Assembly: GCF_051903065.1 (NCBI RefSeq)
Contig: NZ_CP178438.1
Length of the DNA: 64,000 bases
Strand: one strand, 5' to 3'
DNA from: Escherichia coli
Lineage (GTDB): Bacteria; Pseudomonadota; Gammaproteobacteria; Enterobacterales; Enterobacteriaceae
The notes below the pieces were generated by a model. The model ran no database searches, was not told the DNA's origin, and was given only the letters and a program-made list of their open reading frames with translations. Shown piece after piece: positions 2,617 to 58,520 of this stretch (the first letter of the stretch is position 1; each line of letters starts with the position of its first letter). The position numbers and the translations under genes were made by a program.

Positions 2617-3534
2617 TTAGCTCACCAATTGCCACTGCCTTTTTTCCATCACTGGAGAACTAATCACTGACATTAACAACTCTTTCACTGCCTGTGCCTG
2701 TGGTGACAAGTTCGCTCTGGCGGGTAAATTTAATGACAAAGAGAGACTCATGGAAGGAGTGGTAATGCGTGACATCCACCCGTTTACTGCGCCACATAAC
2801 GAACGCGCGGCCGATTCAGGTAATACTGCAACGCCCATGCCGCTGGCAATCGCTGCGGTAAGCGTGGCAATAGACTCAATTTCACCAATGACTTTTGCCG
2901 TGAGTCGCCGTAGGGAAAACGCCTCATCAACACGAAGTCTAACAGCGCTGTAATCACTGGGGAGAAAGAGGTTCATTTGTGCAATAGCATTAACATCAAC
3001 GCTTTGCCCCGGGCAATCTTGAGTTCCTACCAGGAAAAGATCTTCTTTCAGCAAAGCCTGACTGGATACCCCAGCCACAGGGGAATGCTCATAAATCACC
3101 GCCATATCGAGTTGGTGATTTATCAGTTTTTCGTTAAGCACTGCACCGCTATTTTCATGAAGATAGATAACGATCTCCGGGAATTCAGCGCGAACCGCCT
3201 GTAATAAGGGCATGGTGATGGATGACGCAGCGGTTCCTGGCGCAAAGCCAATCGAGACTTGCCCCGATAATGCCTGACCAACGTTATGCACCGCCAGTTG
3301 GGCCTGCTCACACTGACGTAAAATGGCCCGCGCATGGGTATAGAGAATTTTTCCGGCGTCTGTTGGCGTAACGCCCCGTTTTGTGCGAATCAAAAGTTGT
3401 TGATTTAACTCACCTTCCAGTGTGGCAACCTGCTGGCTGAGCGCTGGTTGTGCGATATGCAATACTTCAGCAGCCTGAGTCAGGCTACCAATATCTACAA
3501 TTTTTACGAAGTATTTCAGGCGTCTGAAGTTCAT
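2617..3534 (-). CDS. nac: Nitrogen assimilation control protein Nac (LysR family)
   Basis: ORF with internal ATG at 3532-3534 giving MNFRRLKYFVKIVDIGSLTQAAEVLHIAQPALSQQV...; the track ORF is extended 10 codons upstream. Confidence 0.88.
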   Translation of the reverse strand: MNFRRLKYFVKIVDIGSLTQAAEVLHIAQPALSQQVATLEGELNQQLLIRTKRGVTPTDAGKILYTHARAILRQCEQAQLAVHNVGQALSGQVSIGFAPGTAASSITMPLLQAVRAEFPEIVIYLHENSGAVLNEKLINHQLDMAVIYEHSPVAGVSSQALLKEDLFLVGTQDCPGQSVDVNAIAQMNLFLPSDYSAVRLRVDEAFSLRRLTAKVIGEIESIATLTAAIASGMGVAVLPESAARSLCGAVNGWMSRITTPSMSLSLSLNLPARANLSPQAQAVKELLMSVISSPVMEKRQWQLVS

Positions 3535-17506: not shown

Positions 17507-18331
17507 TTACTCCAGCGGCATTACCAGCGGATCGGGATACTGGTATTCAAACCCCAGTTCATTACAAATCCGACTGCCATCAATAATCTTACCTTTGCCG
17601 CTGTCCAGACTATTTCTGAACTGCGGAGGTTCCAGCCCCAGTAAACGGGCCATCTGCGGATAGAAAACATTACGCGCAGGGTGAGCTGGCGCACATATAT
17701 TATAGATGTGTCCGCCTTTAGGTGCCTGTAACAACAGAGTGATAGCGCCAATAACATCTTCTAAATGGACTAAATTAACACCATGTTCACCATCAGGCGC
17801 AGTTTTTCCGGCAAAGAAGCGTCCGGGATGACGTCCCGGTCCGACCAGCCCCGCAAGACGCAGAATATCGACCGAAGTACCGGGTAAATTGTGCAGCCAG
17901 TCTTCGAGTTCTTCTAATACTCGTCCACTGTTGGTCACCGGATTACGCGGGGTGGTTTCTTTCACCGTGCCTTGCGCGTCGCCATAGACAGACGTTGAGC
18001 TGGTAAAAATAATGCGGGGAATACGATGGGCCAGCGCGCTATCCACTAACTCTTGTACCGCTTGTAAATAGAACTCATCGCCGGGGCCGCTACGACGTGC
18101 CGGAAGCGTAATGACCAGGGCGTCGGCATCCATCAGGGCATCCAGATCGTCAGAATCGCAAACTAACTCAGGCTCCATGCGAAGCAGATAGCTATCAATG
18201 CCACTCATTCGGGCCGCTTCGACACCATCTTGTGTGGTTTTACTCCCGGTGACTTGCCAGCCTCGCGCTGAAAGTGACATCGCCAGCGGCATGCCTAACC
18301 ACCCTAACCCGACAATTGCGACCTTTTTCAT
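17507..18331 (-). CDS. yeeZ: NAD(P)-binding Rossmann-fold protein (epimerase/dehydratase-like)
   Basis: 274-aa ORF MKKVAIVGLGWLGMPLAMSL... Confidence 0.85.
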   Translation of the reverse strand: MKKVAIVGLGWLGMPLAMSLSARGWQVTGSKTTQDGVEAARMSGIDSYLLRMEPELVCDSDDLDALMDADALVITLPARRSGPGDEFYLQAVQELVDSALAHRIPRIIFTSSTSVYGDAQGTVKETTPRNPVTNSGRVLEELEDWLHNLPGTSVDILRLAGLVGPGRHPGRFFAGKTAPDGEHGVNLVHLEDVIGAITLLLQAPKGGHIYNICAPAHPARNVFYPQMARLLGLEPPQFRNSLDSGKGKIIDGSRICNELGFEYQYPDPLVMPLE

Positions 18332-18435
18332 CCGTTATCTCCTGATACACCTTAGATCTATAAGGCTACGCTAGCGTATCAAAACTGACAATTCATTCTA
18401 TGAATGAAATCGAAACGGTTAGCAAATATACCATT

Positions 18436-18535
18436 GCCTGATGCGCTCCGCTTATCAGTCCTACAAAAACTTCAATATATTGAATTTACGCAACATTTGT
18501 AGACCAGATAAGGCATTCACGCCGCATCCGGCAGG
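18436..18535. repeat. REP/BIME palindromic units
   Basis: GCCTGATGCGCTCCGCTTATCAGTCCTACA ... TGTAGACCAGATAAGGCATTCACGCCGCATCCGGCAGG; same family as the REPs inside the colanic acid operon. Confidence 0.65.
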
Positions 18536-18689
18536 AACAAAGCCCACTTTAGTTACAGAACACAATGTTCTTGAGGGTTTTAAAGACATATTTTCACGAT
18601 TACTTCTCTAACGTAGTCACTCCAGGCCCCCACCTTTCCCCGCTCATTCATTAAACAAATCCATTGCCATAAAATATATAAAAAAGCCC

Positions 18690-18719
18690 TTGCTTTCTAA
18701 CGTGAAAGTGGTTTAGGTT
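18690..18719 (+). promoter_or_regulatory. Candidate his operon promoter (-35 TTGCTT, -10 TAGGTTA-like)
   Basis: TTGCTT, about 17-18 nt spacer, then TTAGGTTA, roughly 40 nt upstream of hisL. Confidence 0.45.
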
Positions 18720-18757
18720 AAAAGACATCAGTTGAATAAACATTCACAGAGACTTTT

Positions 18758-18808
18758 ATGACACGCGTTCAATTTAAACACCACCATCATCACCATCATC
18801 CTGACTAG
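18758..18808 (+). CDS. hisL: his operon leader peptide
   Basis: ATG ACA CGC GTT CAA TTT AAA CAC CAC CAT CAT CAC CAT CAT CCT GAC TAG = MTRVQFKHHHHHHHPD with seven consecutive His codons. Confidence 0.92.
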   Translation: MTRVQFKHHHHHHHPD

Positions 18809-18869
18809 TCTTTCAGGCGATGTGTGCTGGAAGACATTCAGATCTTCCAGTGGTGCATGAACGCATGAG

Positions 18870-18908
18870 AAAGCCCCCGGAAGATCACCTTCCGGGGGCT
18901 TTTTTATT
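18870..18908 (+). terminator. his attenuator terminator hairpin
   Basis: AGCCCCCGGAAGATCACCTTCCGGGGGCTTTTTTATT between hisL and hisG. Confidence 0.88.
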
Positions 18909-18953: not shown

Positions 18954-19853
18954 ATGACAGACAACACTCGTTTACGCATAGCTATGCAGAAATCCGGCCG
19001 TTTAAGTGATGACTCACGTGAATTGCTGGCGCGCTGTGGCATTAAAATCAATCTTCACACCCAGCGCCTGATCGCGATGGCAGAAAACATGCCGATTGAT
19101 ATTCTGCGCGTGCGTGACGACGACATTCCCGGTCTGGTAATGGATGGCGTGGTAGACCTTGGGATTATCGGCGAAAACGTGCTGGAAGAAGAACTGCTTA
19201 ACCGCCGCGCCCAGGGTGAAGATCCGCGCTACTTTACCCTGCGTCGTCTGGATTTCGGCGGCTGCCGACTTTCACTGGCAACGCCGGTTGATGAAGCCTG
19301 GGACGGCCCGCTCTCCTTAAACGGTAAACGTATCGCCACCTCTTATCCTCACCTGCTCAAGCGTTATCTCGACCAGAAAGGCATCTCTTTTAAATCCTGC
19401 TTACTGAACGGTTCTGTTGAAGTCGCCCCGCGTGCCGGACTGGCGGATGCGATTTGCGATCTGGTTTCCACCGGTGCCACGCTGGAAGCAAACGGCCTGC
19501 GCGAAGTCGAAGTTATCTACCGCTCGAAAGCCTGCCTGATACAACGCGATGGCGAAATGGAAGAATCCAAACAGCAACTGATCGACAAACTGCTGACCCG
19601 TATTCAGGGCGTGATCCAGGCGCGCGAATCAAAATACATCATGATGCACGCACCGACCGAACGTCTGGATGAAGTCATCGCCCTGCTGCCAGGTGCCGAA
19701 CGCCCAACCATTCTGCCGCTGGCGGGTGACCAACAGCGCGTAGCGATGCACATGGTCAGTAGCGAAACCCTGTTCTGGGAAACGATGGAAAAACTGAAAG
19801 CGCTGGGAGCCAGTTCAATCCTGGTCCTGCCGATTGAGAAGATGATGGAGTGA
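18954..19853 (+). CDS. hisG: ATP phosphoribosyltransferase
   Basis: [20 protein letters not shown]...; RBS AGAGGAATAAG upstream. Confidence 0.95.
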
Positions 19854-43409: not shown

Positions 43410-43597
43410 GCCTGATGCGACGCTGGCGCGTCTTATCAGGCCTACAAGACCCGAGCACAGAACCGTAGGCCGGATAAGGCGTTCACGCCGCATCCGGCAT
43501 TCAGTGCCTGATGCGACGCTGACGCGTCTTATCAGGCCTACAGGTCCCGAGCACAGAACCGTAGGATGGATAAGGCGTTTTACGCTGCACCCGGCAA
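43410..43597. repeat. REP/BIME cluster (about 4 units) between wcaK and wzxC
   Basis: Repeated GCCTGATGCGACGCTGGCGCGTCTTATCAGGCCTACA... / ...GGATAAGGCGTTCACGCCGCATCCGGCA units. Confidence 0.8.
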
Positions 43598-48012: not shown

Positions 48013-48115
<103 letters not shown>

Positions 48116-58465: not shown

Positions 58466-58520
58466 GCCGGATGCGGCGTGAACGCCTTATCCGGCCTACG
58501 GGGCGGTGCGAATGCAGGCG
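58466..58520. repeat. REP element between wzc and wcaA
   Basis: GCCGGATGCGGCGTGAACGCCTTATCCGGCCTACG. Confidence 0.7.

What the first reader, a model, noticed from the sequence alone, without database searches (positions are those of the whole stretch)
18332..18757. yeeZ-hisL intergenic region lacks the yefM-yoeB toxin-antitoxin pair
K-12 has the yefM-yoeB type II toxin-antitoxin operon between yeeZ and hisL. Here the interval is about 425 bp with no ORF of 60 aa or more, and instead holds a REP/BIME pair (18436-18535) followed by the his promoter and leader. Presence or absence of this TA module is a strain-level polymorphism.
Basis: partly seen in the sequence, partly recalled or inferred. 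Interest (0 to 1): 0.4.

Follow-up and report, generated by a model that had tools for sequence, protein, structure and literature searches.

The report
Known E. coli allele lacking yefM-yoeB
This E. coli strain carries the common, already described version of the yeeZ-hisL spacer that has a short repeat element (BIME-1) where K-12 has the yefM-yoeB toxin-antitoxin genes, so the finding is correct but ordinary.

Summary
The yeeZ-hisL spacer (18332-18758, 427 bp) has no ORF of 60 aa or more. Nothing in the 64-kb window resembles YefM or YoeB. The spacer holds a REP pair, then the his promoter, hisL and the His leader.

The difference from K-12 is a replacement, not a simple deletion. Both alleles share 77 bp next to yeeZ and 132 bp before hisL. 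Between these, the window has a 217-bp block containing a BIME-1 (Z1 REP, L linker, inverted Y REP). K-12 has an unrelated 658-bp block with yoeB, yefM and their promoter.

Among 5,426 complete E. coli genomes, 1,192 carry the window's allele and 4,209 the TA allele. About 22 carry something else. The K-12-type module is almost never found elsewhere in genomes that lack it here.

The TA-less block is also present, at 85-91% identity, in E. albertii, and in two other Escherichia lineages. Other Enterobacteriaceae have neither block. Plasmid copies of yefM-yoeB share homology exactly from the yoeB stop codon to 64 bp upstream of yefM. The TA-less allele is therefore probably the older state in Escherichia, and the TA module a later insertion.

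Iguchi et al. 2011 already reported this difference for O157 Sakai. Interest is low.

The parts
17507..18331 (-). yeeZ (SDR-family oxidoreductase), the left-hand core gene
   Evidence: 274-aa ORF. It is annotated yeeZ in the near-identical strain ECNB21-M121 and is 98.9% identical in nucleotides to K-12 yeeZ.
18332..18408 (.). 77-bp left flank shared by both alleles. It holds a likely yeeZ promoter on the minus strand: -35 TTGTCA (18386-18391), a 17-nt spacer, and -10 TAGCCT (18363-18368).
   Evidence: The flank is 100% identical to K-12. The motifs AAGGCTACGC and CTGACAATTCAT are conserved across Enterobacteriaceae. The promoter assignment is my inference; the consensus scan did not call it because it scores 8 of 12.
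18409..18625 (.). Allele-specific 'TA-less' block of 217 bp, which stands in place of K-12's 658-bp yoeB-yefM block. The true right junction is probably near 18615/18616.
   Evidence: There is no blastn match to the K-12 spacer. Local alignment to the TA block scores no better than shuffles. The block is orthologous in E. albertii, Escherichia sp. E1V33, Escherichia sp. MOD1-EC7003 and E. coli E69. It is absent from Salmonella, Citrobacter, Enterobacter and others.
18436..18464 (+). Z1-type REP (palindromic unit), GCCTGATGCGCTCCGCTTATCAGTCCTAC
   Evidence: 2 mismatches to the Z1 consensus, with 0 matches in shuffles.
18465..18498 (.). L-type linker of the BIME-1, with the 14-bp palindrome TTCAATATATTGAA and an IHF-like site at 18473-18485 (-)
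   Evidence: Palindrome I3. The IHF consensus matches with 1 mismatch, which is not above chance on its own. IHF binding by L linkers is a family property taken from PMC3333891.
18499..18532 (-). Y-type REP, inverted relative to the Z1 REP
   Evidence: 3 mismatches to the Y consensus, all C-to-T, with 0 matches in shuffles. It forms inverted repeats I1 and I5 with the Z1 REP.
18626..18757 (+). 132-bp right flank shared by both alleles. It consists of about 55 bp of Escherichia-specific sequence, then the his promoter (-35 TTGCTT 18690-18695, -10 TAGGTT 18714-18719).
   Evidence: 99.2% identical to K-12. The first ~55 bp are absent from outgroups, and the promoter part is conserved in them. The hexamer assignment is read from the sequence and from my knowledge of the his promoter.
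18759..18809 (+). hisL leader peptide with 7 consecutive His codons
   Evidence: Sequence and annotation in ECNB21-M121.
18784..18907 (+). His operon leader/attenuator RNA
   Evidence: Rfam RF00514, 131.6 bits, E = 1.7e-23.
18954..19853 (+). hisG, the first structural gene of the his operon
   Evidence: ORF and annotation. It is 98.1% identical to K-12 hisG.

Best explanation
The window carries the TA-less allele of the yeeZ-hisL spacer. The yeeZ promoter and the his promoter, each conserved in both alleles, flank a 217-bp non-coding block whose core is a slightly decayed BIME-1 (Z1 REP, L linker, inverted Y REP). K-12-type strains instead have a 658-bp block with yoeB, yefM and their promoter/operator, oriented in the same direction as yeeZ. 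The likely history has three steps, all inferred. First, other Enterobacteriaceae have the two promoters almost back to back. Second, the ancestor of Escherichia gained about 270 bp including the BIME-1. Third, in one lineage a compact promoter-yefM-yoeB module of plasmid type replaced about 210 bp of that sequence by illegitimate recombination. Both alleles have since moved between lineages by homologous recombination through the flanking core genes, which lie next to the O-antigen recombination hot spot. The practical consequence is that this strain makes no YefM or YoeB from this locus. yeeZ cannot be co-transcribed from a yefM promoter here. The his control region is unchanged up to about 100 bp upstream of its start site. 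The confidence of 0.78 is for the whole account including the direction of change; that the allele is TA-less and holds a BIME-1 is close to certain.
For: - Shown: YefM/YoeB coding sequence is absent from the window.
- Shown: the shared flanks and the non-homologous middle blocks are mapped.
- Shown: the REPs are Z1 and Y types in inverted orientation with a 34-bp linker. This is the published BIME-1 architecture (PMC1187871, PMC3333891). The element is dispersed at 25-40 or more copies per genome.
- Shown: 1,192 genomes carry this allele and 4,209 carry the TA allele.
- Shown: the TA block occurs in 4,218 genomes, always on chromosomes, with a median of one copy. At most about 9 genomes could hold it away from this locus.
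- Supports the direction of change: E. albertii, two unnamed Escherichia species and E. coli E69 have the orthologous TA-less block. The albertii block is 85-91% identical, as expected for old, vertically inherited spacer.
- Supports the direction of change: 75 other Enterobacteriaceae loci have a 363-407 bp yeeZ-hisG gap with neither block.
- Supports the direction of change: plasmid yefM-yoeB copies (Salmonella, Citrobacter, E. marmotae; 83-86% identical) match positions 5/6-572 of the block. That runs from the yoeB stop codon to 64 bp upstream of yefM. The chromosomal block starts only 5 bp beyond that module end.
- Supports the direction of change: the TA block has 44% G+C against 52-54% in the flanking genes.
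- Published: Sakai lacks yoeB/yefM here and has REPs in yeeZ-hisL (PMC3158064). Chromosomal TA modules are described as horizontally transferred promoter-plus-ORF units inserted in intergenic regions (PMC5120126, citing Ramisetty and Santhosh 2016).
Against: The direction of change is not proven.
- E. whittamii has the TA allele with the same junctions, and its block is 96.7% identical to K-12. The TA allele is therefore also old or has crossed species.
- E. fergusonii, E. marmotae and E. ruysiae chromosomes were not recovered, so the genus sample is thin.
- The TA-less block is itself low in G+C (41%; 36% outside the BIME), so base composition does not separate the alleles well.
- A BIME-1 between two divergent promoters is an unusual position. 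RIB/BIME-1 elements are described at the 3' ends of transcription units (title of Boccard and Prentki 1993, cited in PMC3333891).
- The IHF site is only a 1-mismatch consensus match, which is at chance level.
- The rest of this strain's genome could not be searched.
Confidence: 0.78

Rival explanations
1. Secondary loss. The ancestor of Escherichia had yefM-yoeB at this site, and the window's lineage lost it, with the gap filled by unrelated DNA carrying a BIME-1.
For: The TA allele is the majority form in E. coli (4,209 of 5,426). It is also present in E. whittamii with identical junctions. BIME-1 elements are known to be present or absent between isolates (PMC1187871). About 55 bp of Escherichia-specific sequence to the right is shared by both alleles and could have arrived with either block.
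Against: The TA-less block is orthologous, and diverged to a species-typical degree, in E. albertii and two other Escherichia lineages. It holds no trace of yefM or yoeB. A loss would have had to cut within 5 bp of the end of the mobile module as defined by plasmid copies, and at the same time bring in 217 bp of new DNA.
Confidence: 0.17
2. The module is not missing but relocated. This strain carries K-12-type yefM-yoeB elsewhere in its genome, on the chromosome or a plasmid.
For: Only 64 kb of the genome is visible. Plasmid-borne yefM-yoeB relatives exist in Enterobacteriaceae, including an E. marmotae plasmid.
Against: Of 5,426 genomes, 4,218 have any match to the TA block and 4,209 have it at this locus. 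All 4,225 places are chromosomal, none is on an E. coli plasmid in that collection, and the median is one per genome. At most about 9 genomes could carry it elsewhere. More distant YefM/YoeB-family pairs (below about 80% nucleotide identity) were not tested.
Confidence: 0.03
3. Assembly or sequencing artefact: the TA module was collapsed out of the spacer.
For: None.
Against: The same spacer occurs at 97.6-100% identity in 1,192 independently finished genomes, including E. coli B and O157:H7. It also occurs in other Escherichia species.
Confidence: 0.01

Closest known systems
yeeZ-hisL spacer of E. coli O157:H7 Sakai and E. coli B (the TA-less allele)
   Same: Same architecture and 97.6-98.7% identity over 626 bp, with nothing annotated between yeeZ and hisL. 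Iguchi et al. 2011 state that Sakai lacks yoeB and yefM between yeeZ and hisL and that REP sequences lie in yeeZ-hisL (PMC3158064).
   Different: Only a few SNPs. In the window one of them (A to T at 18471, inside the L linker) makes the central palindrome perfect and weakens the plus-strand IHF-like core that the other Escherichia copies have.
yefM-yoeB locus of E. coli K-12 MG1655 (b2017/b4539)
   Same: Same chromosomal site and the same flanks: 77 bp on the yeeZ side and 132 bp on the hisL side, 99-100% identical.
   Different: K-12 has a 658-bp block with yoeB, yefM and their promoter. The window has an unrelated 217-bp BIME-1 block.
BIME-1 / RIB / RIP elements of E. coli (Y + L + Z1)
   Same: One Z1 and one Y palindromic unit in inverted orientation, a single copy, a long 34-bp linker with an IHF-like core, extragenic, and a member of a dispersed family (PMC1187871, PMC3333891).
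   Different: It lies between two divergent promoters rather than at a 3' end. Both REPs are slightly decayed (2 and 3 mismatches). IHF binding is untested.
ccdO157 at folA-apaH and other chromosomal type II TA modules that are present or absent between E. coli strains
   Same: A small TA module occupies an intergenic site between core genes in some strains and not in others. Reviews state that no TA system is conserved across four reference strains (PMC7167474).
   Different: A different TA family and site. The comparison with ccdO157 rests on my own recollection of Mine et al. 2009, which appears only in the reference list of PMC7167474.

Membership tests
YefM-YoeB type II toxin-antitoxin module | An ORF encoding a Phd/YefM-family antitoxin (~83 aa) | tested here: not met
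   tblastn with K-12 YefM against the whole window gives a best E-value of 0.36, outside the spacer. Pfam finds nothing in the spacer ORFs.
YefM-YoeB type II toxin-antitoxin module | An adjacent, overlapping ORF encoding a YoeB/Txe toxin (~84 aa) | tested here: not met
   tblastn with K-12 YoeB gives a best E-value of 0.28, outside the spacer. No ORF in the spacer exceeds 56 aa.
YefM-YoeB type II toxin-antitoxin module | Nucleotide similarity to the K-12 yoeB-yefM-promoter block | tested here: not met
   blastn with word size 7 finds only the two flanks. The local alignment score of 20 is matched by 154 of 500 shuffles on the plus strand and 166 of 500 on the reverse strand.
BIME-1 (REP pair with L linker) | One Z1-type and one Y-type palindromic unit | tested here: met
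   Z1 at 18436-18464 with 2 mismatches and Y at 18499-18532 with 3 mismatches; no shuffle produced a match. The consensus sequences were recalled from memory. The Y consensus is validated by exact copies elsewhere in the window (43465, 58466).
BIME-1 (REP pair with L linker) | The two units are in inverted orientation, present as a single pair, and separated by a long linker | tested here: met
   Inverted repeats I1 and I5, with a 34-bp linker at 18465-18498. The definition is from PMC3333891.
BIME-1 (REP pair with L linker) | The linker carries an IHF binding site | tested here: inconclusive
   ATTCAATATATTG at 18473-18485 (-) has 1 mismatch to WATCAANNNNTTR. The window has 86 such sites against 68 expected by chance. 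Binding was not tested.
BIME-1 (REP pair with L linker) | Member of a dispersed, extragenic repeat family | tested here: met
A match covering at least 80% of the element is found in 5,425 of 5,426 genomes. Here it is intergenic.
His operon leader / attenuator (RF00514) | A leader peptide with a run of His codons, followed by the attenuator structure | tested here: met
   hisL has 7 consecutive His codons. The covariance model scores 131.6 bits against a gathering score of 49, over model positions 1-126.

The most novel reading that the evidence does not exclude
The two alleles might be an old polymorphism kept by selection across Escherichia species rather than neutral drift plus hitch-hiking with the O-antigen region. 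The TA-less block might also carry a function of its own. One candidate is the 29-codon ORF at 18565-18654. It is open in all five Escherichia copies, and the only three substitutions in its first 12 codons are synonymous. Another candidate is the BIME-1 acting as an IHF-bound insulator between the divergent yeeZ and his promoters.
Probability: 0.05. Interest if true: 0.4.

Novelty: already known. Interest (0 to 1): 0.1.

Why it matters
It matters little beyond correct annotation. The strain should be recorded as lacking the YoeB toxin and YefM antitoxin at this locus. yefM-yoeB deletion mutants were outcompeted by wild type in a mouse bladder model of uropathogenic E. coli (PMC3464220), and the module has been implicated in Lon-dependent mRNA cleavage (PMC7167474). 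The case is also a clean example for two general points. First, chromosomal TA modules behave as compact promoter-plus-genes cassettes that replace spacer DNA. Second, describing an allele as 'missing relative to K-12' can hide the fact that the K-12 state is the derived one.

Tried and rejected
- I looked for a decayed remnant of yefM or yoeB in the 217-bp block with tblastn, blastn (word size 7), Smith-Waterman with shuffles, and Pfam on the small ORFs. All were negative.
- I looked for an sRNA or other RNA family in the spacer. Only the His leader passes. The weak naRNA4 and ES036 hits (about 20 bits, below their cut-offs) merely reflect the REP sequence.
- Folding the BIME as RNA gives a z-score of -0.73, so it is not exceptional.
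- The promoter/terminator scan found only two weak promoter-like sites inside the BIME, at chance level. It missed the his promoter, so it was uninformative.
- The IHF consensus search is at chance level.
- I considered target-site duplications or flanking repeats at the junctions. None were found, apart from a 10-bp hairpin across the right junction in K-12 that is only partly kept in E. whittamii.
- I could not obtain E. fergusonii, E. marmotae or E. ruysiae chromosomes. The single genome-contig scan did not return them.
- One paper search failed on term length and one paper look-up failed on a term that was too short.

Full report
**What is at the coordinates**

The window is ordinary E. 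coli chromosome. It differs from strain ECNB21-M121 by 8 mismatches over 38.9 kb. That strain's annotation gives the gene order plaP, yoeI, yeeY, yeeZ, hisL, hisGDCBHAFI, wzzB, ugd, gnd, then an O38-type O-antigen cluster.

- yeeZ lies at 17507-18331 on the minus strand, and hisL (MTRVQFKHHHHHHHPD) at 18759-18809 on the plus strand.
- The spacer is 427 bp, and its longest internal ORF is 56 aa.
- The His leader (RF00514) is found at 18784-18907 with 131.6 bits.
- In K-12 MG1655 the same interval holds yoeB and yefM on the yeeZ strand.

**Is yefM-yoeB really absent?**

Yes. tblastn with the K-12 proteins against all 64 kb gives best E-values of 0.36 and 0.28, none of them in the spacer. blastn with the K-12 spacer at word size 7 finds only two stretches: 18332-18408 (77 bp, 100% identical) and 18626-18757 (132 bp, 99.2% identical). 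Pfam finds nothing in the five small ORFs of the spacer.

**Anatomy of the difference**

The two alleles share both ends and differ by a non-homologous middle. The window has 217 bp (18409-18625). K-12 has 658 bp (L001 2707-3364). Local alignment of the two blocks, in either orientation, scores no better than shuffled sequence. This is therefore a replacement, not a clean deletion. Comparison with other TA-less copies suggests the true right junction is about 10 bp further left, near 18615/18616. The apparent boundary at 18626 comes from a few SNPs specific to the window.

**The repeat element**

- A Z1-type REP lies at 18436-18464 on the plus strand, with 2 mismatches to consensus.
- A Y-type REP lies at 18499-18532 on the minus strand, with 3 mismatches, all C to T.
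- Neither consensus is matched at that stringency in shuffled sequence.
- The two REPs are inverted and separated by a 34-bp linker with the palindrome TTCAATATATTGAA.

One Y and one Z1 unit with a long L linker is the published definition of a BIME-1, whose linker often binds IHF (PMC1187871, PMC3333891). The IHF-like site at 18473-18485 has one mismatch, which is no better than chance. IHF binding is therefore inferred from family membership only. As RNA the element does not fold unusually well.

**What is unchanged**

The 77-bp left flank contains TTGTCA, a 17-nt spacer and TAGCCT on the minus strand (18391-18363). These lie inside motifs conserved across Enterobacteriaceae. I read this as the yeeZ promoter, which is an inference.

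The right flank contains the his promoter (TTGCTT at 18690-18695, TAGGTT at 18714-18719). It is conserved in all the genera compared. The allele difference starts about 100 bp upstream of the his start site.

In TA-bearing strains yeeZ has been proposed to be co-transcribed with yefM-yoeB as well as having its own promoter (PMC5120126). That extra input cannot exist here.

**Population frequency**

| Class, among 5,426 complete E. coli genomes | Genomes |
|---|---|
| Window's allele over at least 80% of a 626-bp probe (97.6-100% identical; includes E. coli B and O157:H7) | 1,192 |
| K-12 (TA) allele over at least 80% of a 1,066-bp probe | 4,209 |
| Neither | about 22 |
| Any match to the TA block alone | 4,218 |

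All 4,225 places that match the TA block alone are chromosomal, with a median of one per genome. Genomes with the TA-less spacer therefore almost never carry the K-12-type module elsewhere.

One of the rare other forms is SY3626_hybrid. It has a yeeZ-like gene only 178 bp from hisL, no yeeY, and a his leader 88.8% identical. This looks like a segment imported from another genus.

**Which state is older?**

A scan of one genome per species returned 80 loci.

- E. coli E69, E. albertii, Escherichia sp. E1V33 and Escherichia sp. MOD1-EC7003 have a yeeZ-hisG gap of 621-623 bp, like the window's 622 bp.
- E. whittamii has a gap of 1,063 bp, with YefM and YoeB 100% identical in protein to K-12.
- 74 loci from Salmonella, Citrobacter, Enterobacter, Klebsiella, Kluyvera and other genera have gaps of 363-407 bp with neither block. 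One further short contig lacked hisG.

The four Escherichia TA-less spacers align base for base with the window. Against E. albertii the block is 85-91% identical, while the promoters and leader are 96-97% identical. That pattern is what an old, vertically inherited, weakly constrained spacer would show.

The outgroups lack the whole 217-bp block. They also lack about 55 bp to its right, which both Escherichia alleles share.

Plasmid copies of yefM-yoeB in Salmonella, Citrobacter and E. marmotae are 83-86% identical. They match positions 5/6-572 of the K-12 block. On a Citrobacter IncF plasmid this runs exactly from the yoeB stop codon to 64 bp upstream of the yefM start. The chromosomal TA block begins only 5 bp beyond that module end.

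The TA block has 44% G+C against 52-54% in yeeZ and hisG.

Together these results favour the following order: short ancestral spacer, then gain of about 270 bp with the BIME-1 in the Escherichia ancestor, then replacement of about 210 bp by a compact TA cassette.

The counter-evidence is the TA allele in E. whittamii. It has the same junctions and is 96.7% identical in the block, against 93.2% in yeeZ and 95.4% in hisG. The TA allele is therefore also old or has crossed species. The genus sample is incomplete. I put the insertion order at roughly 0.75-0.8 and secondary loss at roughly 0.17.

**Comparison with what is known**

The polymorphism is published. Iguchi et al. 2011 state that O157 Sakai lacks the two small genes corresponding to K-12 yoeB and yefM between yeeZ and hisL. 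They also list yeeZ-hisL among the intergenic regions that hold REP sequences (PMC3158064).

Work from Ramisetty and colleagues describes E. coli chromosomal TA modules as horizontally transferred promoter-plus-ORF units inserted between core genes (PMC5120126). A review notes that no type II TA system is shared by four reference strains from different phylogroups (PMC7167474). BIME-1 elements are known to be present or absent between isolates (PMC1187871).

This analysis adds only detail: the exact junctions, the frequency in about 5,400 finished genomes, and the outgroup argument for polarity.

**Verdict**

The finding is already known, and interest is low.

Noticed in passing
window 18565-18654 (+): A 29-codon ORF (MFLRVLKTYFHDYFSNVVTPGPHLSPLIH) lies inside the TA-less block and is open in all five Escherichia copies. 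The three substitutions in its first 12 codons are all synonymous, while its C-terminal half changes freely. It has no Shine-Dalgarno sequence and no Pfam hit.
   Followed up: partly
window 18363-18391 (-): TTGTCA, a 17-nt spacer and TAGCCT lie within motifs (AAGGCTACGC, CTGACAATTCAT) conserved from Escherichia to Klebsiella and Kluyvera. This is probably the yeeZ promoter, and it is kept in both alleles.
   Followed up: partly
L001 (K-12) about 3344-3366: A perfect 10-bp hairpin, GCTAAGAGGA-CAG-TCCTCTTAGC, spans the right junction of the TA block. One arm is TA-specific and the other lies in shared sequence. It is only partly kept in E. whittamii.
   Followed up: partly
L083 (E. coli SY3626_hybrid, NZ_CP059283.1): A rare third allele has a yeeZ-like gene only 178 bp from hisL, no yeeY, and a his leader 88.8% identical. 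It looks like a his-region segment imported from another genus.
   Followed up: partly
H41 (E. coli TUM1509, NZ_CP195093.1): This is a TA-bearing allele with an IS1A insertion in the yeeZ-hisL region.
   Followed up: no
window 43410-43541, 48014-48094, 58466-58499: Further REP elements lie downstream in the window: a Z2-Y-Z2 cluster, a Z2 plus Y pair, and a single Y unit. These are typical BIME-2-like arrays. By position beyond galF they are probably in the colanic-acid region.
   Followed up: no
window 1-38857: The window differs by only 8 mismatches from E. coli ECNB21-M121 (meat isolate, Zhejiang). Annotation of that strain places an O38-family wzx/wzy O-antigen cluster downstream of the his operon.
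   Followed up: partly
window 18471: A SNP in the L linker (T here, A in the four other Escherichia copies) makes the central palindrome TTCAATATATTGAA perfect. It also removes the plus-strand ATCAA core of the IHF-like site.
   Followed up: no
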